From a virus, in the UHGV virus genome UHGV-1968440: a stretch of 14,431 nt of DNA; one strand, given 5' to 3'. Below the pieces are notes generated by a model. The model was not told the origin of the DNA. It worked only from the letters and a program-made list of their open reading frames with translations, and made no database searches. Each line of letters begins with the position of its first letter. Position 1 is the stretch's first letter. Shown here piece after piece: positions 1,011 through 14,428 of this stretch. The translations under genes were made by a program, and so were the position numbers.

Positions 1011-1988
1011 TTAAGCACCTCCTAGTGGATTAAACCTCACCGCATCCTGCAGGTAATCCGGCGCAAGATGGGCATAAATCATCGTTGTCTGAATCTTTGC
1101 GTGCCCCAGAATTTTCTGGAGCGTCAGAATATTGCCGCCGTTCATCATGAAATGACTGGCGAAGGTGTGGCGCAGCGCATGAACAGCCTGGCCGTCAGGA
1201 ACATCAGGTGCGACCGTTTTGATGACATCGCGAACCAATGAATAATCCAGCGTCGGAAACACCAGTTTCCCGCCCCGTTTTTTGATCTTTTCAAACAGGC
1301 TTTCAGAAATAGGAACGGTACGGTTTTTGCTGTTCTTCGTTTTTGAAAAAGTGATTCGACAATGAAGAACACGGCGCTGCTCCAGTGCCGCTACCTCGCC
1401 CCATTGCGCCCCGGTCGACAGAAGGATTTCGACAGCCAGCCGTTCATCGGGATTTTCAGCCAGTGCATCCAGCAACTGAACACATTCAGACTTACTCAGG
1501 TATCCCATTTCGCGCTCGTTAACCTTCATTCCTTTAAGGCCTTGAACGGGGTTATCGTTAAGAAAATGGCCGGATGAGATGAGTGCGGTAAACATCGCGC
1601 TTAACGCCCCAATCTCTCGATTTATGGTGCTGGGCTGTATCCCCTGCTCTATCCTGGACACACGTAGCTCGGTGAGCATCGTTGTATTAAGTTTATGCAC
1701 GCACGGGTCATCCATTGCCTCACTCAAGCGCAGCAATTTAAGGCGCGTGTTATGCCCTGACTTCATTAGCTGGCCGTGGTATTTCCACCACAAGTCAATA
1801 AGCACTGACAGCGGACGGCGATCAATAGAGTTTCCTTTCCACTCATTGTTATGCTGTTGCGCCAGCACCCACCGCTCATATAAAACTGCATCCGATTTCG
1901 TTTTAAATTTTTTACGAATGCGTTTGCCTTTACGCCCCTCCGGGCGTATGTCAAGAAGATACCCTCCCGGAATTGATTTTATGCTCAT
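1011..1988 (-). CDS. int: Tyrosine integrase, P2 Int-like
   Basis: Track ORF 1011..2138; likely start at internal M (MSIKSIPGGYLLDIRPEGRKGKRIRKKFKTKSDAV...) at 1986..1988, giving ~325 aa. C-terminal catalytic region HALRHTFASHFMMNGGNILTLQKILGHAKIQTTMIYAHLAP carries the R/H..H/Y signature of tyrosine recombinases. N-terminal segment resembles P2 integrase as I recall it. Confidence 0.9.
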   Translation of the reverse strand: MSIKSIPGGYLLDIRPEGRKGKRIRKKFKTKSDAVLYERWVLAQQHNNEWKGNSIDRRPLSVLIDLWWKYHGQLMKSGHNTRLKLLRLSEAMDDPCVHKLNTTMLTELRVSRIEQGIQPSTINREIGALSAMFTALISSGHFLNDNPVQGLKGMKVNEREMGYLSKSECVQLLDALAENPDERLAVEILLSTGAQWGEVAALEQRRVLHCRITFSKTKNSKNRTVPISESLFEKIKKRGGKLVFPTLDYSLVRDVIKTVAPDVPDGQAVHALRHTFASHFMMNGGNILTLQKILGHAKIQTTMIYAHLAPDYLQDAVRFNPLGGA

Positions 1989-2037
1989 TCGTGAAACCCC
2001 AGCGTTACAAGACCACCATGCCCCCAGCGCTCCATGA

Positions 2038-2346
2038 TTAGCCGGGCTGTGTGCCAGTCTTGCGGGGTTTTTGAGAAGGCGATGTGCTTTTTGGCCCATC
2101 AGGGGAGAGAGACGGACTGATCTGCCCAGCAGCCTCATTTGTTTTTCCCGTCATAAGCCAATTCATGTACTTAAAAAAGCGAGGGTGATTAACAATCTTG
2201 ATAAGCACTTCGCCCCCTATGTTTTCAATCCGCCCCGTTTCATAACGACGCAAAGTGCCGATAGGCACATCAATCAGGCCGCAAAATTCTTCGCGCGTTA
2301 AATCCTCTGATTCACGAATCACTCTAATTTTTTCACCGATAAGCAT
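2038..2346 (-). CDS. Immunity repressor, P2 C-type small HTH protein
   Basis: Track ORF 2038..2382; probable start at M13 (MLIGEKIRV..., ATG at 2344..2346). HTH-like segment LTREEFCGLIDVPIGTLRRYETGR. Sits between int and a divergently transcribed Cox-like gene, as in P2-like phages. Confidence 0.75.
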   Translation of the reverse strand: MLIGEKIRVIRESEDLTREEFCGLIDVPIGTLRRYETGRIENIGGEVLIKIVNHPRFFKYMNWLMTGKTNEAAGQISPSLSPDGPKSTSPSQKPRKTGTQPG

Positions 2347-5656: not shown

Positions 5657-6046
5657 ATGATTGACGCTCATGACTTCACAAGATGGGTGCGCACACAGGA
5701 CACCCGTCTGGCTCCCGTTCTTCAGGGATTATTTGATCTCTACATCCGTGGTCGTGACAACAGAGCACGCACCACAAAACCGGAGAATGCAGACACCCTT
5801 TATTTCACAGTAGACGACTGCTACCGCGTGGACTTCACACCACACGGGCTGGCGTTGCACTGCCTGACACCACACGGAGAATCACTGCTGGCGTATTACG
5901 ACTCCCCGACCTCCGTATTTGCGGCAATGCTGGCGCATCGCACTGCTGGCGGGTGTGCCTCGCTGAGTGAATACACCGCTGAATTTAACCGCCTTTCTGC
6001 CCTCTTCTCGCAGGAGTGGCAGCGCGTGACGGGATACCAGCCATGA
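5657..6046 (+). CDS. Hypothetical protein translationally coupled to the replication initiator gene
   Basis: 129-aa ORF; its TGA (6044..6046) overlaps the ATG (6043..6045) of the downstream large gene. Confidence 0.6.
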   Translation: MIDAHDFTRWVRTQDTRLAPVLQGLFDLYIRGRDNRARTTKPENADTLYFTVDDCYRVDFTPHGLALHCLTPHGESLLAYYDSPTSVFAAMLAHRTAGGCASLSEYTAEFNRLSALFSQEWQRVTGYQP

Positions 6047-8883
6047 ATGAGTTTGCATGGAGCTGGAATGAACCACGGCCAGCCATTGATCCGGCCAGAT
6101 TTACGGAGCACAGGCAGGAAACTGAAACCGACCTGCAACGCGCCATCCGTTACTACCTTGAGGCAGACAAAAAGGCTCTGGAAGAACAGGAAGCGAAGGA
6201 GGAAGCCTTTTTCGCACAATCCACCGTGGGTAAAAAACTCATGGCATCCCTTGAGGAAGCCGGACAGCGTGAAAAGCTGGCACAAAGCATCATCAGCAAG
6301 CGTCAGGCAACAGAACAAGACCCGGTGGCCCGTGCTTTTGCCACACTGAAGGTGCTTCCCGTTTATCTGCGTAAACCTCTGAGCCGCCACCTCTCTTTCC
6401 TGCGCAAAAAACAGGAAGCCGATCGCCAGAAAGGCAAAAAGAGCTGGCAGGCTGAACGCTACGCGCGCGGAACCCTGCGCAAAATATTCGAACGCCTGGA
6501 CCGCACCGACCACCGCTGGCTGACACCGGGTTATCGCTCCCTTGCCGGACGCGAACGCCTGGATGATTTGCTTTACCTGCCGCAGCTCAACAAGCACCAG
6601 ATACAGACGCTGGCCACCATGACGGCGGCGATGTTCAGCAGCACCTTCGAAAAACTCTGCGATGGCTTTGGCGCGACCGATGGTGAGCTGACCATGGATG
6701 TAACGCTGAAGGCGTATCAGATGCTGGCCCGCATGGCGTTACACCTGCACGCCATGCCTCCACATTATGACGCACTGACAACAGACAAAGACCGGAGGAA
6801 CGAACCGGACACGGAGCTGCTGCCGGGCGCAACCCTTCGCCTGACCTGTGCGGAATGGTGGAAACGCAAACTGTGGCTGTTACGTTGCGAGTGGCGGGAA
6901 GAACAACTCCGCGCCGCCTGTCTGGTTTCCAGAAAAACATCACCCTATCTGAGCCAGGACGCGTTAAGCGAGTTTCGCGCACAGCGCGAGAAAACACGCG
7001 ATTTCCTGAAAAGTTTCATGCTGGAAAATGAAGACGGGTTCACGATTGATCTCGAGACGGTGTATTACGCGGGAGTAAGTAACCCGGTTCACCGTAAGGC
7101 AGAAATGATGGCCACCATGAAGGGGCTGGAACTTCTGGCCGAAGCCCGTGGCGACAGAGCGGTGTTTCTGACTGTCACCTGCCCGTCAAAATACCACGCA
7201 ACAACGGAGAACGGTCATCCGAATCCCAAATGGAACGGGGCCACAATGCGCGACTCCAGCGATTACCTGGTTAACACGTTTTTTGCGGCGGTCCGCAAAA
7301 AACTGAACCGCGACGGCCTGCGCTGGTATGGCATCCGCACGGTGGAGCCTCACCATGACGGCACTGTGCACTGGCATATGATGGTCTTTGCACATCCGGA
7401 CGAGATTGAAACCATCGTGTCCCACGTCTGCGATATTGCCATTCAGGAAGACCGCCACGAGCTGGGCGATGACATAACTCCGCGTTTTAAGGCGGAGTAC
7501 GTCGACGGCTCAAAAGGCACGCCAACCAGCTACATCGCCACCTACATCGGAAAGAACCTGGACAGCCGCGCCGTGGATGGCATCGACCCGAAAACGGGCA
7601 AGCCACGCGTTGACCACGAAACAGGTAAATCAATGGCCGAGAGCGTGGAGCGCGCCATCGGCTGGGCGCGCCTTCACCGGGTCCGTCAGTTCCAGTTCTT
7701 TGGCATCCCCTCCCGTCAGGTGTGGCGTGAACTGCGCCGCCTTGCCAGCCAGATGGCACGCAATCCGGAAGGCCCGCAACGGCTGAAGGATGACGCAATG
7801 GACGCGGTACTCGCTGCCGCTGATGCCGGATGTTTTGCCACCTACATTGAGAAACAGGGTGGCGTACTTGTTCCACGCAAAGACTACCTGATTCGCACCG
7901 CCTACGACCTCGCAGATGAGCTGAACGATTACGGTGAACAGAGCGTACAGATTTACGGGATCTGGTCGCCGCTCATTGGGGAGTCTTCCCGCGTATGCAC
8001 GCATCCGGATAACTGGAAGCTGGTAAGACGCAAACCGGAAGCGGAAGACAGCGCCCGCGAAAATGGTTTTGACCTTCAGGGCGGCCCTGCCGCCCCTTGG
8101 ACTCGTGGCAATAACTGTCCCCGTGTACAGGAAACAGGCAACAACGGGACAGAACAGCCGGAAGAACGGCCAGCACCGTGGCCGCAGCTTCCTGACGGCG
8201 TTGAAGTAAATGAATGGATGCGCTCACTGAAACGGCACGAACGCCGGGCGCTGATGCGTTCGCTTCGTGACAAACAGGCAAAAAACAGCAGCGATGAAAT
8301 GCAGAACTGGACACAGAGCCGCAAACAGCAGCGGCCTTTGCCTGATAACCACGAGTTACTCGCTAAAGAATGGCGGGAGTCTGCTGAATCTCTCGGCCTG
8401 CATATCGGTGAACAACAGATGCAGCACCTGTTACGGGGCGGCAGTCTGTACGTTGACGGCAGCATCATTGCACCGCAGGGATTTGAAATTGTACGCAAAC
8501 CGGATACCCGCCCGGACAGCCGAATCACGCAGCTCTGGCAGCGTCTGAGCCGTAATCATGGCGTAAGCAGCACGGAGATCCGCCATAACCCGGTCGCCAG
8601 CTATCTGGCACAGCTGGGGGCATCAGACCCTGAAGCCGCCGCACGCCTGGCATCCACACTTCAGCAGGACCAGAACACCATGAAAACACCCGTTACCGTG
8701 CTTTCTGACATGCTGCGCGCCATCCGCGACGCAGAGCACGCACAGAGAATCAGTGAAACCACTGAACGCGCCAGCCGCAAAGCAGACCTGCTGCGGGGTG
8801 GCCTGACCAGTGGAAACAAAAAACAGACAGAAACGGGACTCACGAATCCCGTAAATGAGCAAAAAACGCGCAGCGATATATGA
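6043..8883 (+). CDS. A: Rolling-circle replication initiator, P2 gpA-type HUH endonuclease
   Basis: Track ORF 6016..8883; likely start MNEFAWSW at 6043. HUH metal-binding motif VHWHMMVF (codons 7366..7389) and a paired-tyrosine motif YIATYIGKN (7531..7557), as in phiX174 gpA / P2 gpA-type initiators. Last large gene of the early operon. ~946 aa, longer than P2 gpA as I recall it (~760 aa). Confidence 0.85.
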   Translation: MNEFAWSWNEPRPAIDPARFTEHRQETETDLQRAIRYYLEADKKALEEQEAKEEAFFAQSTVGKKLMASLEEAGQREKLAQSIISKRQATEQDPVARAFATLKVLPVYLRKPLSRHLSFLRKKQEADRQKGKKSWQAERYARGTLRKIFERLDRTDHRWLTPGYRSLAGRERLDDLLYLPQLNKHQIQTLATMTAAMFSSTFEKLCDGFGATDGELTMDVTLKAYQMLARMALHLHAMPPHYDALTTDKDRRNEPDTELLPGATLRLTCAEWWKRKLWLLRCEWREEQLRAACLVSRKTSPYLSQDALSEFRAQREKTRDFLKSFMLENEDGFTIDLETVYYAGVSNPVHRKAEMMATMKGLELLAEARGDRAVFLTVTCPSKYHATTENGHPNPKWNGATMRDSSDYLVNTFFAAVRKKLNRDGLRWYGIRTVEPHHDGTVHWHMMVFAHPDEIETIVSHVCDIAIQEDRHELGDDITPRFKAEYVDGSKGTPTSYIATYIGKNLDSRAVDGIDPKTGKPRVDHETGKSMAESVERAIGWARLHRVRQFQFFGIPSRQVWRELRRLASQMARNPEGPQRLKDDAMDAVLAAADAGCFATYIEKQGGVLVPRKDYLIRTAYDLADELNDYGEQSVQIYGIWSPLIGESSRVCTHPDNWKLVRRKPEAEDSARENGFDLQGGPAAPWTRGNNCPRVQETGNNGTEQPEERPAPWPQLPDGVEVNEWMRSLKRHERRALMRSLRDKQAKNSSDEMQNWTQSRKQQRPLPDNHELLAKEWRESAESLGLHIGEQQMQHLLRGGSLYVDGSIIAPQGFEIVRKPDTRPDSRITQLWQRLSRNHGVSSTEIRHNPVASYLAQLGASDPEAAARLASTLQQDQNTMKTPVTVLSDMLRAIRDAEHAQRISETTERASRKADLLRGGLTSGNKKQTETGLTNPVNEQKTRSDI

Positions 8884-8928
8884 GGCGCGCACAAAACAGG
8901 CAAAAACGGGATTTCAGAATCCCGTAAA
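8821..8928. repeat. Two copies of a ~35-bp iterated dyad element (parC-like centromere/operator or ori-associated site)
   Basis: AAACAGRCARAAACGGGAYTYASGAATCCCGTAAA at 8821..8855 and 8893..8928; each copy contains the inverted pair ACGGGA/TCCCGT; spacing ~72 bp. Copy 1 lies inside the 3' end of the A gene, copy 2 in the parM upstream region. Confidence 0.6.
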
Positions 8929-8959
8929 CGATTAATTAATCAACATAAGGAAAACCGAC

Positions 8960-9919
8960 ATGAAAATTTACATCGACGACGGCTCCACCAACATCAAGCT
9001 GGCATGGACTGAGAACGGCGAACGCCGCAACGCCATCAGCCCGAACAGCTTCAAGTCGGAATGGTCTGCGCCGTTCGGTGGCTCGCAGCCTGCTAACTAC
9101 ATGCTTGATGGCGTGCGCTATGGTTTTGATCCGGTCAGCGATCGCTTTGTCCAGACGACCGACACGCAATACCAGTACAGCGATGTGAATGTCATTGCCA
9201 TTCATCACGCGCTGGTCAAATCAGACATCACGCCACAGGAAGTGGATGTGGTTGTTACCCTGCCACTGAGCGAATATTTCGACACAAACGCACAGCCGGA
9301 CATGGCCAACATCAACCGCAAAAAAGCGAACGTCATGCGCCCGGTGGAGTACCAGAACGGCGAAGCATTCACTATCCGTAACGTACGGGTTATGCCTGAA
9401 TCCATTCCGGCTGGCTTTAAAGCACTGGCTGACATGAGTCCGTTTGAATCCCTGCTGATTGTGGATTTGGGCGGAACCACGCTGGATGTGGCAAAGGTTC
9501 AGGGGCAACTGGCAGGTATCAGCCAGGTGTTTTGCGATCCACACGTAGGCGTTTCTCTTATGGCCGATGCCGTACTGTCGGTGATGGCCACTAACGGTAT
9601 GCGCACCAGTCACCACATCGCCAATACCATTATCGAACATCGCCATAATGAAGCCTGGCTGCGCCAGCACATCCACAATGACGCGCATTACGCCAGCCTG
9701 ATGGCGGTTATTCGTGAAAAGGAAGAAACACTGAAACAACGCGTGATCCGCGCGCTGGCGGTTTTTTCGGGTTACGGGCGGGTGATGGTTGTCGGTGGCG
9801 GGGCGGAGATTGTGGCACCCGCTATCCGCGAAGCCTGCGGAGTTAATGCGACTTTCATCGCGGACGGGGTGCCACAGTTTGCTCTGGTTAATGGGCTGTA
9901 CGCAATGGACAAGGAGTAA
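8960..9919 (+). CDS. parM: ParM/StbA-like actin-type segregation ATPase
   Basis: 319-aa ORF. N-terminal MKIYIDDGSTNIKLAW, then SPNSFK, YSDVNV, HHAL, MPESIPAGF, DLGGTTLDV, GVSL, VVGGGAE and LVNGLYAM match, in order, the motifs I recall from plasmid R1 ParM (actin/ASKHA fold). SD-like AGGA 8 nt upstream of the ATG. Confidence 0.85.
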   Translation: MKIYIDDGSTNIKLAWTENGERRNAISPNSFKSEWSAPFGGSQPANYMLDGVRYGFDPVSDRFVQTTDTQYQYSDVNVIAIHHALVKSDITPQEVDVVVTLPLSEYFDTNAQPDMANINRKKANVMRPVEYQNGEAFTIRNVRVMPESIPAGFKALADMSPFESLLIVDLGGTTLDVAKVQGQLAGISQVFCDPHVGVSLMADAVLSVMATNGMRTSHHIANTIIEHRHNEAWLRQHIHNDAHYASLMAVIREKEETLKQRVIRALAVFSGYGRVMVVGGGAEIVAPAIREACGVNATFIADGVPQFALVNGLYAMDKE

Positions 9920-9923
9920 ACCA

Positions 9924-10235
9924 ATGACGACACCAACCAGACGGATAAGTTTCTATCTGAAGCCCGCCGCCGTCAAGAACGAAGGAGAAGCATGCGCCTG
10001 GCTGGACAGCCTTACACCAGAAGCCCGCAAAAGCGGCCAACGCGTGGCTTTTCTGGCCGGGCTGGCACTTCTGAAGACGAATCCGGCAGAGGCTTACCGA
10101 CTGGCCGCATGGGCTGATGATGAGATGTTACCTGTGACACAAATCAGCTCAAAAAAGTTTGAAGCACAGTCTGCACCAGTGGCTAAGATAACCAGCCAGA
10201 TGGCTGGGAATATCCGGGCGTTATTTCCTGAGTAA
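9924..10235 (+). CDS. parR: ParR/StbB-like centromere-binding adaptor
   Basis: Track ORF 9789..10235 is an upstream-extended version; ATG at 9924 has SD AAGGAG (9911..9916) and follows the parM stop by 4 nt. Translation MTTPTRRISFYLKPAAVKNEGEACAWLDSLTPEARKSGQRVAFLAGLALL parallels the N-terminal region of R1 ParR as recalled (RTIAFKLNP...LDSIPQGERSRLNRAALTAGLAL). Confidence 0.75.
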   Translation: MTTPTRRISFYLKPAAVKNEGEACAWLDSLTPEARKSGQRVAFLAGLALLKTNPAEAYRLAAWADDEMLPVTQISSKKFEAQSAPVAKITSQMAGNIRALFPE

Positions 10236-10355
10236 AAGCATCTGCGCGAAAAATGCTCACGTTTATAGAGACAGTATCATTCCATTTGGCACACTTACTT
10301 CAATAATCGATCTGTTAAACAAATAGATTGTCTATTATCTATCGATTAAAACGAT

Positions 10356-10420
10356 CAATTATCTTGACAGTAATGTGCCTTTTTGTAAGATCGTTCGCAT
10401 TGTGAGCGACAAGATAATTG
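10356..10420 (+). promoter_or_regulatory. Sigma70-like promoter bracketed by 11-bp inverted repeats (operator-controlled promoter)
   Basis: TTGACA at 10364..10369, 16-bp spacer, TAAGAT at 10386..10391. Flanked by CAATTATCTTG (10356..10366) and its inverse CAAGATAATTG (10410..10420). A 15-bp palindrome AATAGATTGTCTATT (10322..10336) lies just upstream. Confidence 0.5.
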
Positions 10421-10469: not shown

Positions 10470-10599
10470 TAAAACTCGGTCGGGCTCACTTAACCTGATA
10501 TGCGTGCCTTCCGAAGTAAATCAAAATGTGCGTCGTATATTTTATTGCTTACACGCACCTCTGTAAAGGCACGCATATTTTTCCTATGAGGTAAATAAA

Positions 10600-10869
10600 G
10601 TGCGGGCTAAAACAGGTATTTGCAAGAACCCTCATCGTTATAATCCAACATTTCTGTCTCTCCCTGAATATCAAGGACAAGAAGGTCGGCACAAATGCGC
10701 TGCCTGTGCTTTTGAGCTAGGCATAAAAGATGCGCTTGAAGGACGCGCTATGGCTCAGAATGATTTAGTTTTAGCTAACATTCCGTTTAGCCAGGCTGGA
10801 ACTGTAAGGCACAGAGATGCCTATGAAGCATATGTTCGTGGTTGGCGATTAATAAACAGCAACAATTGA
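10600..10869 (+). CDS. Hypothetical small Cys/His-containing protein (accessory island cargo)
   Basis: 89-aa ORF with GTG start; SD GAGGT at 10588..10592. Residues C8, H12, C34, C37 (CKNPH ... HKCAACAF) could form a small metal-binding site. Followed by a clear intrinsic terminator. Confidence 0.5.
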   Translation: MRAKTGICKNPHRYNPTFLSLPEYQGQEGRHKCAACAFELGIKDALEGRAMAQNDLVLANIPFSQAGTVRHRDAYEAYVRGWRLINSNN

Positions 10870-11430: not shown

Positions 11431-11955
11431 ATGGTCATTAATTACAAGCAGTTAAGAGAAAAACGGGAGCAGGTAAAGGAGAGCTTTCGCCGCAATGAAG
11501 ATCTGACCCCGCTTGTACGCCTTGCCCAGGGCATTGTTGATGCTTATGAAATCTCGCTGGAGCTGCCATCACAGACCTGGACAGATAGCGACGGTAATCG
11601 CCAGCATTACGTTTCATGCGGACTGGAAGCAGCCGAAGGATTTCGCAGAATGCCTTTATCCCAGATCCCTGCCGCTACCCCCAAAGCACGGGGCAGCAAT
11701 GATGAGCGAAAACTGACTTTTAGTATTGAAACGGTGGTTGACGACACACCTGGCGAAGTCGCGTTCGTGCACACGCCTGTTTCGATCGCAATGTATAACG
11801 ATGAAATACAGGTTCGCGTTAATAATAATATCGTGCCACTTAAAGAAGGTAATTCACCCTACACCACCGTTTGTGAAGCCATTCAATATTACGTTCTCTC
11901 TGAAATTGATAATCTCAAGCCTGACGGCACCCAGAAAATGGTTCAACTCTGGTAA
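11431..11955 (+). CDS. Hypothetical protein (orphan cargo gene adjacent to the portal gene)
   Basis: Track ORF 11392..11955; ATG at 11431 with SD GGAGG (11419..11423) at 7 nt; ~174 aa; no motif I can recognise; convergent with the portal gene. Confidence 0.6.
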   Translation: MVINYKQLREKREQVKESFRRNEDLTPLVRLAQGIVDAYEISLELPSQTWTDSDGNRQHYVSCGLEAAEGFRRMPLSQIPAATPKARGSNDERKLTFSIETVVDDTPGEVAFVHTPVSIAMYNDEIQVRVNNNIVPLKEGNSPYTTVCEAIQYYVLSEIDNLKPDGTQKMVQLW

Positions 11956-11961
11956 AAAGGA

Positions 11962-11986
11962 CAGCCCCATCACGGGGCTGTTTTTT
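11962..11986. terminator. Bidirectional intrinsic terminator between convergent genes
   Basis: Stem cagcccc/ggggctg (11962..11980) followed by TTTTTT on the plus strand and by CCTTTTTAC on the minus strand; overlaps the last codons of the portal gene. Confidence 0.7.
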
Positions 11987-13016
11987 CATCAAGAAGAGCA
12001 TAAGAGTTAAAACGGATCACCTCTTCGCCAAGCCAGTCATTGATGTGCTTCATAGCCTCCATGACGGGCATCAGCTCGTTAATTGCGTAAACCCGCGCTG
12101 CCTTCTCCACATCGCCAAACGCACTTTTTTCGCCCGGCATCGCCCCCATCAGTTGCGGCGGAACGCGGTGCGCAGCCAGCACATCATCACGGGATGCCGC
12201 CTTAACATTCATGAATTCATCTTTTGCGGTGATCTGCTGGAACGGCAAAATTTGCACCCCCTCTTTGCCCCCGTTGGGCGCATGAATGAGCACGTTTTTA
12301 AACGCACCACCACCACGTGCCCCCTGTAGCGTTTCTTTCAGGGAGTCCATGCTTTCGCGGTTTACCTGCGCTGCACCGATGTAGATGATGCACCCGGCGT
12401 GGGATCCGTTGTCGTAGTACAGTTTTCTGAACATGTCCGCCGAATGAGAAAGGCTGGCCGAGAGTAATGCGCCAAGATATTCCGGCATGCCGTAGATTTC
12501 CTGGTTAATATCCGGATTCATCAGGTGGCACACTTTGCCAGGACGAAACTGAAACGCGTCCTTGCCATCCTGCACATACCACCATGATTCAAGATCGCTT
12601 CCGCGTCGCATGTATTTCGCCAGGGCGTGCCGTAATTTAAGCGGTTCGCCGAGCATATTGCTTCGAAGCTCAAGGAATGCGTTACCGAACACAAACCAGT
12701 CCAGCGCCAGCGCCGAGAAATCCTGCCGGGAAAGCAGCGGGTGCGGGATGTAGCAACCGAGTAATACATTGCGCTTAAAGTAAAGCGCAGACTGATGCCA
12801 GGACGTTTGCCGGGCTGCTCTTGCCAGACCGTACCAGTCCACCGGGGTTTCATACCACCGCCCGTTATCAGCACAGTACATATTGTCCAGCAGGTCATGC
12901 CCGGTCAGGCGATAAGGACCATCAAATGTGAATGCACTGAGCGATGATTCTTTCCTGAGCGCATCAGCGAGATCAATGCGTGAACTCATGCGCACTTTTT
13001 TATTTTTTCTGCTCAT
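11970..13016 (-). CDS. Q: Portal protein, P2 gpQ-like
   Basis: 348-aa ORF beginning MSRKNKKVRMSS; segments GRWYETP, LESWWYVQ, HLMNPDINQEIYGMPEYL, YYDNGSHAG, SRDDVLAAHRVPPQLMG, GDVEKAARVY and NDWLGEEVIRFN resemble P2 gpQ as I recall it. Start overlaps the stop of the upstream terminase gene (ATGA at 13014..13018). Confidence 0.8.
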   Translation of the reverse strand: MSRKNKKVRMSSRIDLADALRKESSLSAFTFDGPYRLTGHDLLDNMYCADNGRWYETPVDWYGLARAARQTSWHQSALYFKRNVLLGCYIPHPLLSRQDFSALALDWFVFGNAFLELRSNMLGEPLKLRHALAKYMRRGSDLESWWYVQDGKDAFQFRPGKVCHLMNPDINQEIYGMPEYLGALLSASLSHSADMFRKLYYDNGSHAGCIIYIGAAQVNRESMDSLKETLQGARGGGAFKNVLIHAPNGGKEGVQILPFQQITAKDEFMNVKAASRDDVLAAHRVPPQLMGAMPGEKSAFGDVEKAARVYAINELMPVMEAMKHINDWLGEEVIRFNSYALLDEKTAP

Positions 13017-14428
13017 CAGAACTCCATAACCGTGAAACGCTCGTTTTCTCCTTCGCCGCCAATTGGTTCGTTAATGACAGCAAGCATGGTTGCCCACGCA
13101 AGGTCGCCGTGGCTGATCCCCCTCGCGCGGTCCGTTTCGTAAGTGATAAAGCCGCCCGGTGTTTTCACCTTACGCACGGCGTTAAAGGCTGCGACCAGCT
13201 CGCGTTCGGCGCGATCGTATTCCCACCGCCCGGCACGCATTATTTGCAGCATTTTCAGTACCAGCGACCGTTTTGATGACAGCGTGAAGGTGTACGGAAT
13301 AGCAGCAGGGAAAAACCGTTTCACTATCTGATAAACAGCCTCCCCGTTCCCGCCTGTCACATCAATGCCGATGTGTTCCACGTTGTAGCGACACGTGAAC
13401 TCTTCAATGACTCTGGCCTGTTCTTCAAACTCCAGCCCCTGAACGCGTCGCGTCTCCACCGTTCGAAAACGGCCGCCAGGAACAGCCGGAGGAACCACCA
13501 CGGACACAGCGCCGCTGTCGCCGTTTCCACTGCTGCCGTTTGCGTCATACCCAATCCATACCGGACGATTCCCCATCGGGCGGGGAGCAAAAGGTTTCCA
13601 GTCTTTCCAGTCGTCGTATCCGTCAACACCACAGCCAATCAGGATATTCAGGTTAAATGCCGATTCCCCTTCGCGGACAAACTCACACATATAGAGATTG
13701 AGGAACTCGTCTTCGGTGTTTTCATCACGAATTTCATCAATATCGGTGTGTTTCCAGCCGTGATTAACCACATCTTCCAGCGTGACAATTTGCCGCCACG
13801 TCCGGTCAGGGCAGATAAGCCCGTTATGCAGCGTTTTCCAGTCCACAGAAAAACGCTGGCGTTTATGCGAGGCCTTTTTCTCGTTCCAGCGGTCGCCGTT
13901 CCAGTAGGCGTATGCCTCGTGCGTTTCGGTGGATGGCGTGGAGAAGTAGGTGCGCCGCAGTCCGCTGAGGGTTGCCATAGCGCCAGCCACCTTGCGCAGT
14001 TCAGCAAAGCGACTGACCCAGAAAAATTCATCAAAATAAAAATTGCCCGTGTAGGACTGTGCCGTCGCAGCAGAAGTACCAAGAAAATGCAGCTCTGCGC
14101 CGTTGGAGAGGATGATTTTATCGCCCCCTTTCAGCTCCACATCAACTTCAGATGCAGCCTCCTGAATAATGCTTTTAAACTGGAACGCCTGACGACGCGA
14201 CGCAGACAAAAAAATCTGGTTACGCTGGTAAGGTTGCGCCACATCGTCACGCAGCGCCATCAGCAGTGCTTCCTGAGCAAAATACCAGGTCGCCCCAATC
14301 TGTCGGGATTTCAGGACCATCCTGTTACGTATCCCGGCTTCCCTGCAAAGGGTCCTGTCTCTTATACACAAATCCCCACCCGGGGATTTGTGATGTCTGT
14401 CAGTCTGCTTTAGGGGGACTCTTTCCAT
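13016..14428 (-). CDS. P: Terminase large (ATPase) subunit, P2 gpP-like; 5' boundary uncertain
   Basis: 470-aa track ORF in-frame to within 3 nt of the window edge. Walker-A-like KSRQIGAT near the N-terminal end of the recognisable region and a Walker-B-like hydrophobic-DE segment (NFYFDEFFWV). The first ~36 track residues translate a hairpin / IS-end-like sequence and look non-protein-like, so the true start is either the Met at about 14318..14320 or lies beyond the window. Confidence 0.75.
   Translation of the reverse strand: MERVPLKQTDRHHKSPGGDLCIRDRTLCREAGIRNRMVLKSRQIGATWYFAQEALLMALRDDVAQPYQRNQIFLSASRRQAFQFKSIIQEAASEVDVELKGGDKIILSNGAELHFLGTSAATAQSYTGNFYFDEFFWVSRFAELRKVAGAMATLSGLRRTYFSTPSTETHEAYAYWNGDRWNEKKASHKRQRFSVDWKTLHNGLICPDRTWRQIVTLEDVVNHGWKHTDIDEIRDENTEDEFLNLYMCEFVREGESAFNLNILIGCGVDGYDDWKDWKPFAPRPMGNRPVWIGYDANGSSGNGDSGAVSVVVPPAVPGGRFRTVETRRVQGLEFEEQARVIEEFTCRYNVEHIGIDVTGGNGEAVYQIVKRFFPAAIPYTFTLSSKRSLVLKMLQIMRAGRWEYDRAERELVAAFNAVRKVKTPGGFITYETDRARGISHGDLAWATMLAVINEPIGGEGENERFTVMEF

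What the first reader, a model, noticed from the sequence alone, without database searches (positions are those of the whole stretch)
8821..10235. ParM/ParR-type actin-like segregation module inside an integrase-bearing P2-like prophage
The two genes right after the replication initiator encode a protein with the ordered motif set of plasmid R1 ParM (DDGSTNIKL, SPNSFK, MPESIPAG, DLGGTTLD, GGGAE, LVNG) and a ParR-like adaptor, preceded by iterated dyad repeats in the position of a parC centromere. Type II partition systems are plasmid and phage-plasmid equipment; an integrating P2-type phage has no obvious need for one. It could give the element an episomal, actively segregated lifestyle, position replicating phage DNA, or have been co-opted as an exclusion/defence function in this variable cargo locus.
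Basis: partly seen in the sequence, partly recalled or inferred. Interest (0 to 1): 0.8.

Follow-up and report, generated by a model that had tools for sequence, protein, structure and literature searches.

The report
ParMRC partition cassette in P2-like prophage
This integrated P2-type E. coli prophage carries a genuine, well-conserved actin-type (ParM/ParR) DNA-segregation cassette of the kind plasmids use; databases and two papers have already noted it, but nobody has tested what it does for the phage.

Summary
Window 8960-9919 encodes a full-length ParM, with both Pfam ParM domains and E = 7.7e-92 to the R1 ParM structure. Window 9924-10235 encodes a ParR/StbB adaptor (PF10784, 9.8e-24). 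Upstream lie two 42-nt repeats, each holding a CGGG-N10-CCCG dyad, 73 bp apart. That is two sites, not a long iteron array.

The element is a P88-like (Xuanwuvirus) prophage. The same DNA occurs in 1321 of 5426 complete E. coli genomes, and 1473 of the 1475 copies are chromosomal.

The pair is not variable cargo. gpA-parM-parR-[cargo]-portal synteny recurs in Plesiomonas, Hafnia, Serratia and Enterobacter P2-like prophages (ParM 53-62% identical). All the prophage ParMs I checked fall in one clade, apart from R1 ParM. parM is under strong purifying selection (dN/dS 0.05-0.15). The two dyads keep their position in three lineages.

RefSeq and PHROGs already name both genes. Rousset et al. 2022 and Pfeifer et al. 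2021 already proposed an episomal state.

My best reading is that the cassette segregates the circular phage DNA while it is off the chromosome, as srpMRC does for SXT/R391 ICEs. A standing plasmid lifestyle is not supported. The system is already known and its function is untested.

The parts
8817..8858 (+). Candidate parC repeat 1: a 42-nt unit containing the dyad ACGGGACTCACGAATCCCGT (8833-8852). It lies inside the last codons of gpA.
   Evidence: Direct-repeat family D2 and inverted repeat I4. The pattern is unique to these two sites. A YGGG-N10-CCCR dyad sits at the same offset (-126 to -132 from the parM ATG) in Plesiomonas and Hafnia prophages.
8890..8931 (+). Candidate parC repeat 2: a 42-nt unit containing the dyad ACGGGATTTCAGAATCCCGT (8906-8925), 53 nt upstream of the parM ATG. 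It is a possible ParR operator over a weak parM promoter (inferred).
   Evidence: It is conserved in E. coli, E. albertii and Salmonella relatives. The equivalent dyad is at -60 (Plesiomonas) and -56 (Hafnia).
8936..8954 (+). Conserved TTAATCAA box followed by the ribosome-binding site AAGGAAAA of parM.
   Evidence: The same TTAATCAA..AAGGxA string precedes parM in the window, Plesiomonas L014 and Hafnia L015. Its role is not established.
8960..9919 (+). parM: 319-aa actin-fold ATPase (filament-forming motor).
   Evidence: Pfam StbA_N 9.7e-81 and ParM C-terminal domain 3e-68. R1 ParM PDB 1mwk E = 7.7e-92 over the full length. PHROG 691 'partition protein'. dN/dS 0.05-0.15.
9924..10235 (+). parR (stbB): 103-aa centromere-binding adaptor. 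It has a conserved N-terminal RRISFYLKP strand plus helices, a hypervariable linker (about residues 67-88) and a conserved C-terminal NIRALFPE motif.
   Evidence: PF10784 9.8e-24. PHROG 2515 'partition protein'. 34% identity to R100 StbB N-terminus. Alignments.

Best explanation
This is a functional type II (ParMRC) DNA-segregation cassette that belongs to the phage itself. It acts on the phage's circular DNA during the periods when that DNA is off the chromosome: after infection and before integration, or after excision while gpA-driven rolling-circle replication makes monomer circles. The proposed steps are as follows. ParR dimers bind the two CGGG-N10-CCCG dyads that straddle the end of gpA and the parM upstream region (four half-sites). 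The ParR C-terminal helix captures the ends of ATP-ParM filaments. Filament growth between two ParR-bound circles pushes the copies apart, so that both daughter cells keep a copy that can integrate or go on to produce phage. The element is therefore not lost when it leaves the chromosome. This is the role shown experimentally for srpMRC in SXT/R391 ICEs, which are also integrating elements that replicate by a HUH-type nickase and have a four-repeat centromere. Shown here: the protein identities, the repeats and their conserved position, the conserved synteny, the purifying selection and the predominantly integrated state. Inferred: ParR binding to the dyads, the timing of expression and the benefit to the phage.
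For: Protein identity is shown. The operon runs in the same direction as the early/replication genes and lies 76 bp after gpA. The scans found no + strand terminator and no strong own promoter in between. The gpA-(0-2 ORFs)-parM-parR-cargo-portal arrangement is kept in P2-like prophages of Plesiomonas, Hafnia, Serratia and Enterobacter, with ParM only 53-62% identical. All the prophage ParMs I checked fall in one NJ clade, apart from R1 ParM. Purifying selection on parM (dN/dS 0.05-0.15) is stronger than on gpA (0.14-0.32). Two dyads lie at -126/-53, -132/-60 and -129/-56, spaced 72-73 bp, in three lineages whose loop and flanking sequences differ. Chance density of the pattern is 0.04-0.07 per kb. 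The ParR DNA-contacting strand RRISFYL and the C-terminal N-I/A-x-x-x-F-P motif are invariant or nearly so, while the linker varies freely. The integrated state is the rule, so any role must lie in a transient phase. One phage-sized circular replicon, pZ1323PEC0009-2 (34,461 bp, integrase present), shows the circle can be abundant enough to assemble. Precedent: srpMRC stabilises excised R391, and its centromere has four 13-bp repeats bound pairwise (PMC4489591).
Against: There is no experimental datum for this system. Two dyads are far fewer than the ten iterons of R1/R100 parC, so centromere function is unproven. In the E. coli lineage the dyads also look like - strand intrinsic terminators. 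Serratia and Enterobacter relatives have a different upstream repeat layout. I could not tell whether the genes are expressed in lysogens or only after derepression. A non-replicating circle gains nothing from partition, so the benefit depends on some replication before integration or after excision, which was not shown. The ParM clade rests on an NJ tree without bootstrap support, and the genomic context was checked for only some members.
Confidence: 0.5

Rival explanations
1. Lytic-cycle DNA positioning. ParMR is an early lytic function that spreads or positions the replicating phage circles for efficient replication and packaging, as AlpC/AlpA do for the Corynebacterium prophage CGP3. It would have no role in inheritance.
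For: The position directly behind gpA, in the early-operon direction, with no detected strong promoter or + strand terminator between them. AlpAC is an integrated-prophage actin-plus-adaptor pair that is induced early, binds repeats upstream of its own operon and is needed for efficient replication (PMC4446434). From established knowledge, P2-type phages package monomeric circles, so dispersing circles could matter.
Against: ParM here is a close relative (about 50% identity) of true plasmid-partition ParMs, whereas AlpC is a distinct actin-like family. Nothing here shows lytic-phase expression. Most P2-like phages replicate well without such a system: 382 phage records carry a gpA homologue and only 14 carry this ParM.
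Confidence: 0.2
2. Facultative phage-plasmid. P88-like phages can persist for many generations as low-copy plasmids, with ParMRC as their partition system. This is the idea of Rousset 2022 and Pfeifer 2021.
For: It is the canonical function of the family. One circular 34.5-kb replicon is deposited as a plasmid. A 32,167-bp Plesiomonas contig is phage-sized and, by my coordinate reading, ends close to the integrase gene. Published suggestions appear.
Against: 1473 of 1475 copies in complete E. coli genomes are chromosomal. The near-identical PLSDB hits I inspected, other than pZ1323PEC0009-2, were not episomal phages: one is an IS26-flanked prophage fragment in an IncC plasmid and one is a linear fragment. 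None of 443 genomes holding the halves of the pZ1323PEC0009-2 attP has the joined junction. Every lineage examined far enough upstream keeps an integrase. No copy-controlled plasmid replicon was seen, only the gpA rolling-circle initiator.
Confidence: 0.15
3. Host-directed or competitive function. The prophage-expressed ParR/ParM would interfere with incoming plasmids or related phages through partition incompatibility or exclusion, or would act as a defence system in the gpA-gpQ hotspot.
For: The location borders the known P2 defence hotspot (PMC9122126). ParR alleles are diverse within E. coli: groups of about 98%, 82-86%, 75% and 54-62% identity sit next to nearly identical ParM.
Against: Neither protein matches any PADLOC family. 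The pair is syntenic and conserved rather than swapped in and out. ParR variation is concentrated in the linker, not in the DNA-reading strand. The upstream dyads are unchanged even where ParR is only 54% identical.
Confidence: 0.05
4. The two dyads are - strand intrinsic terminators that shield gpA from antisense transcription coming from the cargo/late region. On this view they are not a centromere, and the true ParR sites lie elsewhere or are absent.
For: The scan calls both dyads terminator-like on the - strand. The - strand RNAs fold into 8-bp hairpins (-10.2 and -11.3 kcal/mol, z about -2.5) followed by U-rich tails.
Against: In Plesiomonas and Hafnia the equivalent sites keep the YGGG-N10-CCCR dyad and the 72-73 bp spacing. 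There they give only 4-bp stems with 10-nt loops and no U tail. What is conserved is therefore the dyad, not the terminator. The two roles are not mutually exclusive.
Confidence: 0.1

Closest known systems
parMRC (stbAB) of plasmids R1/R100, the type II partition system
   Same: ParM aligns over its full length with all nucleotide-binding motifs identical. ParR belongs to the same Pfam family PF10784, with a similar N-terminal strand-helix region (34% identity). Its C-terminal motif aligns with the ...KKNAMKLIN end of R100 StbB. The gene order parC-parM-parR is the same.
   Different: The host replicon is an integrating P2-like phage, not a low-copy plasmid. The candidate centromere is two dyads 73 bp apart, one of them inside the gpA coding sequence, whereas R100 has 2 x 5 A/C-rich 11-bp direct iterons flanking a promoter. 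This ParR is shorter (103 vs 116 aa) and lacks the mid-protein ...LRSLFPKE segment. No strong promoter was detected between the repeats.
srpMRC of SXT/R391 integrative conjugative elements (Carraro et al. 2015, PMC4489591)
   Same: It is a type II actin-type partition system carried by an element that normally sits integrated. That element excises into a circle that replicates from a nick made by a HUH-type enzyme. The small centromere has four repeats bound pairwise, and the system was shown to reduce loss of the element. This is the closest functional analogue.
   Different: SrpM/SrpR are only distantly related to R1 ParM/ParR, and SrpR has no ParR homology. The proteins here are close ParM/StbB relatives. 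The element here is a phage, not an ICE. Homology to SrpM was not tested here.
AlpC/AlpA/alpS of Corynebacterium glutamicum prophage CGP3
   Same: An integrated prophage encodes an actin-like ATPase plus a DNA-binding adaptor that binds repeats upstream of its own operon. It links circular phage DNA to filaments.
   Different: It belongs to a different actin-like family and a Gram-positive host. It has 24 short alpS repeats, and the gene order is adaptor first. Its role was shown in replication efficiency rather than segregation.
StbA-type ParM of the P1-like phage-plasmid D6
   Same: It is the only other ParM homologue in the phage collection (47% identity). It is a phage that uses a type II system.
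   Different: D6 is a 91-kb obligate plasmid prophage. P88-like phages carry an integrase and are found integrated.

Membership tests
Type II (ParMRC) partition system | Actin-fold ATPase ParM with both ParM domains and the phosphate-1, phosphate-2 and adenosine motifs | tested here: met
   Pfam PF06406 9.7e-81 and PF21523 3e-68. The full-length alignment to R1 ParM structures (E = 7.7e-92) has DDGSTNIKL, MPESIPAG, DLGGTTLD and GGGAE identical.
Type II (ParMRC) partition system | ParR adaptor gene immediately downstream of parM in the same orientation | tested here: met
   parR starts 5 nt after the parM stop. PF10784 9.8e-24. 34% identity to R100 StbB.
Type II (ParMRC) partition system | Ribbon-helix-helix DNA-binding fold in the ParR N-terminus | tested here: inconclusive
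   The AlphaFold monomer model had mean pLDDT 56. Helices were predicted at 20-29, 32-52 and 54-61, with the N-terminal 17 residues unmodelled. No solved-structure sequence match was found. The invariant RRISFYLKP segment fits a ribbon strand, but the fold was not shown.
Type II (ParMRC) partition system | C-terminal ParR helix that binds ParM | tested here: inconclusive
   A predicted C-terminal helix at 86-100 (low confidence). The N-I/A-x-x-x-F-P motif is conserved across all prophage ParRs and aligns with the R100 StbB C-terminal KKNAMKLIN. Binding was not testable.
Type II (ParMRC) partition system | cis-acting centromere of iterated ParR sites upstream of parM, overlapping its promoter | tested here: inconclusive
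   Two positionally conserved dyads are present. There are only two, against ten iterons in R100, and no strong promoter was detected.
Type II (ParMRC) partition system | ATP-dependent filament formation and stabilisation of an unstable replicon | not testable with these tools
   This needs plasmid-stability assays and microscopy or biochemistry.
Phage-plasmid | The prophage resides as an extrachromosomal replicon | tested here: not met
   1473 of 1475 places in complete E. coli genomes are chromosomal. None of 443 genomes has the joined attP junction. One exceptional circular record exists.
Phage-plasmid | Plasmid-type, copy-controlled replication module | tested here: not met
   The only replication initiator recognised is the P2 GPA-family rolling-circle endonuclease. 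RefSeq annotation of near-identical prophages lists no plasmid replication protein. This is a Pfam/annotation-level test only.
Anti-phage defence system of the P2 gpA-gpQ hotspot | Match to a known or candidate defence family, and presence/absence variation between otherwise similar phages | tested here: not met
   There are no PADLOC matches for either protein. The pair is syntenic in all lineages examined, with cargo varying downstream of it.
srpMRC-like stabiliser of an integrating element | Type II partition genes plus a small repeat centromere on an integrating element that replicates as an excised circle | tested here: met
   Integrase plus HUH-type initiator gpA plus parMR plus a four-half-site candidate centromere, compared. 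This is a functional analogy only. Sequence homology to SrpM/SrpR was not tested, nor was stabilisation.

The most novel reading that the evidence does not exclude
P88-like and related P2-like phages need actin-driven movement of their own DNA as a regular step of their life cycle. That step could be handing a replicated circle to each daughter before integration, keeping excised circles from being lost, or spacing rolling-circle products for packaging. It would use a minimal centromere of only two dyads, partly embedded in the replication initiator gene. This would be the first such case in a Gram-negative integrating phage. It would also make P2-like phages a tractable model for transient episomal phases of 'integrated' prophages.
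Probability: 0.35. Interest if true: 0.55.

Novelty: already known. Interest (0 to 1): 0.3.

Why it matters
About a quarter of complete E. coli genomes (1321 of 5426) carry this cassette inside a P2-like prophage. It is kept under stronger purifying selection than the phage's own replication initiator. Integrated prophages are assumed not to need partition, yet no experiment has asked what the cassette does. If it stabilises a transient circular phase, as srpMRC does for ICEs, it would bear on three things: how often 'integrated' prophages live off the chromosome, how lysogeny is established and lost, and where the line between phages, plasmids and ICEs lies. The existence of the system and the episome hypothesis are already in the literature, so the value lies in testing it, not in discovering it.

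Tried and rejected
1. Misassembled plasmid fragment. Rejected, because the same gpA-parM-parR-portal junctions occur in 1321 complete genomes and 14 phage records.

2. Recent capture from a known plasmid. Rejected. Apart from the seven near-identical P88-type records in the plasmid collection (one phage-sized circular replicon; of the two others I opened, one is an IS26-flanked prophage fragment and one a linear fragment; the remaining four, all far larger than a phage genome, I did not open), the best plasmid DNA matches are about 66% identical over 600 nt. The prophage ParMs also form their own clade.

3. Evidence of an episome from the 'Escherichia phage 520873' and '503458' records. Rejected. 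The 520873 record starts with the host gene yecA, so it is a prophage cut out in silico.

4. Large plasmids carrying the cassette. pC-Ec2-KPC (IncC) holds an IS26-flanked prophage fragment, not an episomal phage. The Shigella 'plasmid' is a linear fragment.

5. ParR structure. The AlphaFold monomer had pLDDT 56, too poor for a fold search, so none was run.

6. Expression data for the O157:H7 prophage CP-933T. The papers found gave nothing specific to these genes. I did not confirm that CP-933T carries them.

7. Covariation between ParR and the dyads. The E. albertii ParR is only 54% identical, but its DNA-reading strand and its dyads are unchanged. The result is consistent with the model but not a discriminating test.

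8. The exact ACGGGA-N8-TCCCGT dyad was not found at any other site in the window or in the 41.9-kb locus covering most of the near-identical prophage.

9. The AT-rich inverted repeat after parR (10303-10362) as a downstream centromere. Rejected, because that stretch lies beyond the point where similarity to P88 ends.
Full report
**What is in the sequence**

The window is the left arm of a P2-type prophage. It contains:
- a tyrosine integrase, 1011-2138 (-);
- a Cox/Ash-type early region;
- a GPA-family replication endonuclease, 6016-8883 (+);
- the two genes of the finding;
- a short cargo region;
- the portal, 11970-13016 (-), and the large terminase, 13016-14428 (-).

It matches both Pfam ParM domains (StbA_N 9.7e-81; ParM C-terminal domain 3e-68). 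It aligns end to end with the solved structures of plasmid R1 ParM (E = 7.7e-92), and the nucleotide-binding motifs are identical.

The second gene starts at ATG 9924, 5 nt after the parM stop, and encodes 103 aa. It matches PF10784 Plasmid_stab_B at 9.8e-24. It is 34% identical to R100 StbB/ParR over the N-terminal 56 residues. PHROGs files both proteins as 'partition protein'.

**The repeats**

Upstream of parM there are two 42-nt direct repeats (8817-8858 and 8890-8931, 81% identical). Each contains a 20-bp dyad ACGGGA-N8-TCCCGT, and they lie 73 bp apart.
- The dyad pattern occurs nowhere else in the window.
- It occurs nowhere else in a 41.9-kb locus spanning the left flank and most of a near-identical prophage, where 0.08 are expected.
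- The first repeat lies inside the last codons of gpA, whose stop is at 8883.

This is not an iteron array of the R1 kind. R100 parC, fetched for comparison, has two sets of A/C-rich 11-bp direct repeats flanking a TTGACA promoter. 'Iterated dyad repeats' is therefore right in kind but overstated in number.

**What element this is and how common**

The 1.9-kb region is 94-98% identical to phages of the genus Xuanwuvirus (P88, 520873, 503458, P884B11), to Citrobacter phage phiSM and to a few other isolates. It is present in 1321 of 5426 complete E. coli genomes. Of the 1475 copies, 1473 are on chromosomes and 2 on plasmids. RefSeq annotates the genes as 'plasmid segregation protein ParM' and 'plasmid partitioning/stability family protein'. 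Near-identical prophages sit next to btuC in the chromosome and look complete. Misassembly is excluded.

**Conserved module, not cargo**

Similarity to P88 and most relatives stops exactly at the end of parR, position 10235. The variable gpA-gpQ hotspot therefore begins after parR.

A homologue search found ParM relatives at 91-92%, 62%, 57-58% and 53-56% identity before reaching the roughly 50% level of ordinary plasmid ParMs. I looked up the genomic context of five of these: P0003, P0014, P0016, P0020 and P0027.
- All five lie in P2-like prophages with the order gpA, 0-2 small ORFs, parM, parR, variable cargo, (ogr), portal, terminase.
- The hosts are E. coli, Hafnia, Plesiomonas, Serratia and Enterobacter.
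- The variable cargo includes HicAB, a KAP NTPase and a DUF3800 protein.

In a neighbour-joining tree of 106 full-length sequences these ParMs, and only the sequences nearest to them, form one clade apart from R1 ParM. The tree has no bootstrap support, and the context of the remaining clade members was not checked. A 48%-identical pair in Dickeya sits in an ICE.

The neighbouring modules reassort. Hafnia has ParM at 62% identity but gpA at 33%. E. albertii has ParM at 99% but ParR at 54% and the portal at 30%. The cassette nonetheless keeps its place.

Selection is purifying. dN/dS is 0.05-0.15 for parM, 0.2-0.47 for parR and 0.14-0.32 for gpA.

In the phage collection 382 records carry a gpA homologue. 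Only the 14 P88-type records, plus the P1-like phage-plasmid D6, carry a ParM.

**Support for the dyads as the centromere**

An unbiased repeat search in the Plesiomonas locus found two 26-nt direct repeats 72 bp apart. The first again lies inside the end of gpA, and the second lies just upstream of parM.

Written as YGGG-N10-CCCR, the dyad occurs exactly twice upstream of parM:
- at -126/-53 in the E. coli, E. albertii and Salmonella group;
- at -132/-60 in Plesiomonas;
- at -129/-56 in Hafnia.

The chance density of this pattern is 0.04-0.07 per kb. I widened the pattern after seeing the first two lineages, so the Hafnia hits are the only semi-independent test. Even so, two chance hits landing at those offsets is very unlikely.

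The loop and flanking sequences differ between lineages. The ParR strand RRISFYL (RRVSFYL in Hafnia) is conserved, which fits one shared half-site. Serratia and Enterobacter, whose ParR has RKISFYL, instead carry one long inverted repeat.

The rival reading is that the dyads are - strand terminators. It fits the E. coli sequences, which give 8-bp hairpins followed by U tails. It does not fit Plesiomonas or Hafnia, where only the 4-bp half-sites remain.

A centromere of four half-sites has a tested precedent. srpC of SXT/R391 has four 13-bp repeats that are bound in pairs.

**ParR anatomy**

Across 17 E. coli-group alleles three features stand out.
- The N-terminal about 66 residues and the last nine (NIRALFPE) are conserved.
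- Residues about 67-88 vary freely.
- The C-terminal motif aligns with the C-termini of the longer prophage ParRs and with the ...KKNAMKLIN end of R100 StbB.

From my own knowledge of the R1 ParM-ParR peptide structure, that end is the ParM-binding helix. An AlphaFold monomer model was too weak to use (pLDDT 56).

**Integrated or episomal?**

- 1473 of 1475 copies are chromosomal.
- PLSDB holds seven near-identical hits. One is an IS26-flanked prophage fragment in an IncC plasmid. One is a linear fragment. Several are very large records that I did not inspect.
- Only one is a phage-sized circle: pZ1323PEC0009-2, 34,461 bp, with a complete P2-like gene set including an integrase.
- I joined the ends of that record and searched the resulting attP junction. 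443 E. coli genomes hold its two halves, and none holds them joined.

No plasmid-type replicon is recognisable; gpA is the only initiator. A standing plasmid state is therefore rare at best. Any role must lie in the phases when the genome is a free circle.

**Mechanism proposed**

The proposed sequence of events is:
1. ParR binds the two dyads.
2. Its C-terminal helix caps ATP-ParM filaments.
3. Filament growth pushes sister circles apart.

The cassette lies 76 bp behind gpA, in the same direction. The scans found neither a + strand terminator nor a strong promoter in between. It is therefore probably read with the early/replication genes, possibly with a weak ParR-controlled promoter at dyad 2. 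This point is inferred.

The best-supported role is to keep the excised or newly arrived circle from being lost at division while it replicates by gpA. The circle is made as monomers by rolling-circle replication. This is the role shown for srpMRC of the ICE R391, where the partition system and relaxase-driven replication both reduce loss of the excised form.

The main rival is an AlpAC-like role in lytic replication or positioning. The data here cannot separate the two. The defence/exclusion idea has no support.

**Comparison with what is known, and novelty**

Both proteins are ordinary members of the R1-type ParM and StbB families. Two things differ from the plasmid paradigm: the host replicon, and the minimal candidate centromere that partly overlaps a coding sequence.

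The existence of the system in P2-like phages is already published.
- Rousset et al. 2022 surveyed 18,150 gpA-gpQ loci. [quoted passage not shown]
- Pfeifer et al. 2021 flagged P88 in their phage-plasmid screen. [quoted passage not shown]
- Magaziner et al. 2019 listed the phiSM gene as a 'fitness' factor.

I found no experimental work on the system.

The finding is therefore real, correctly identified and already known. This analysis adds four things: the conserved-module status, the clade, the selection figures and the conserved two-dyad site, together with the genome-scale evidence against a standing plasmid state.

**Verdict**

The novelty rating is 'already known'. Interest is modest (0.3), because an open and easily testable functional question remains.

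Noticed in passing
window 9924-10235; loci L005, L007, L018, L002: parR is a recombination and variation hotspot. Next to a ParM that is 97-99% identical, ParR ranges from 98% down to 54% identity. In most alleles the changes are confined to a linker at about residues 67-88. In some phages DNA similarity to the window stops about 55 nt into parR. The E. albertii prophage L005 is a mosaic whose late genes (portal 30% identical) come from another P2-like lineage, and the similarity drops between parM and parR.
   Followed up: partly
window 10600-10869 (+) and 11431-11955 (+): Two cargo ORFs lie in the gpA-gpQ hotspot, of 89 aa (phrog_3941) and 174 aa (phrog_5091). Both are of unknown function and have no Pfam or PADLOC match. 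The second is missing from the otherwise identical locus H15/L004, where the portal gene lies about 600 bp closer to parR.
   Followed up: partly
window 10303-10391: An AT-rich imperfect inverted repeat (arms 10303-10328 and 10337-10362, rich in ATCGAT) lies immediately before the only good + strand sigma-70-like promoter in the region (TTGACA 10364 ... TAAGAT 10391). It looks like an operator-promoter unit for the 89-aa cargo gene.
   Followed up: no
window 10498-10578: A perfect 13-nt inverted repeat ATATGCGTGCCTT/AAGGCACGCATAT has arms 55 nt apart and surrounds a - strand promoter-like site (10567-10539). Its meaning is unknown.
   Followed up: no
L002 (NZ_CP148288.1, whole record): A complete P88-like genome with an integrase is deposited as a 34,461-bp circular 'plasmid', pZ1323PEC0009-2, from a cat E. 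coli isolate. Its attP junction is never contiguous in 443 other genomes. I could not determine whether that strain also has an integrated copy.
   Followed up: partly
L021 (NZ_MK439959.1, 39750-62833): An IS26-flanked fragment of a P88-like prophage, running from the early genes through parMR to the baseplate genes, sits inside the IncC KPC plasmid pC-Ec2-KPC. A phage partition cassette has therefore been carried onto a conjugative resistance plasmid.
   Followed up: no
L006 (NZ_JBQPOM010000071.1): A 226-kb contig labelled Vagococcus sp. WN89Y carries a 97%-identical ParM with the E. coli-type flanks. This probably reflects enterobacterial contamination of that assembly.
   Followed up: no
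L014 (Plesiomonas WEKF01000002.1): The contig carrying the Plesiomonas P2-like phage is 32,167 bp, which is phage-sized. By my reading of the coordinates, its integrase gene lies close to one end. It could be a circular episome, or an assembly break at att sites caused by a mix of integrated and excised forms.
   Followed up: no
L020 (Dickeya CM001975.1): A parM-parR pair 48% identical to the window's lies beside TraG/TraU conjugation genes and an integrase in a chromosome. It appears to be another integrating element (an ICE) with a type II partition system.
   Followed up: no
window 8833-8852 and 8906-8925, - strand: In the E. coli lineage the two candidate ParR sites also have the form of tandem - strand intrinsic terminators, with 8-bp hairpins followed by U-rich tails. 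They might also stop antisense transcripts from the cargo/late region before these enter gpA.
   Followed up: partly
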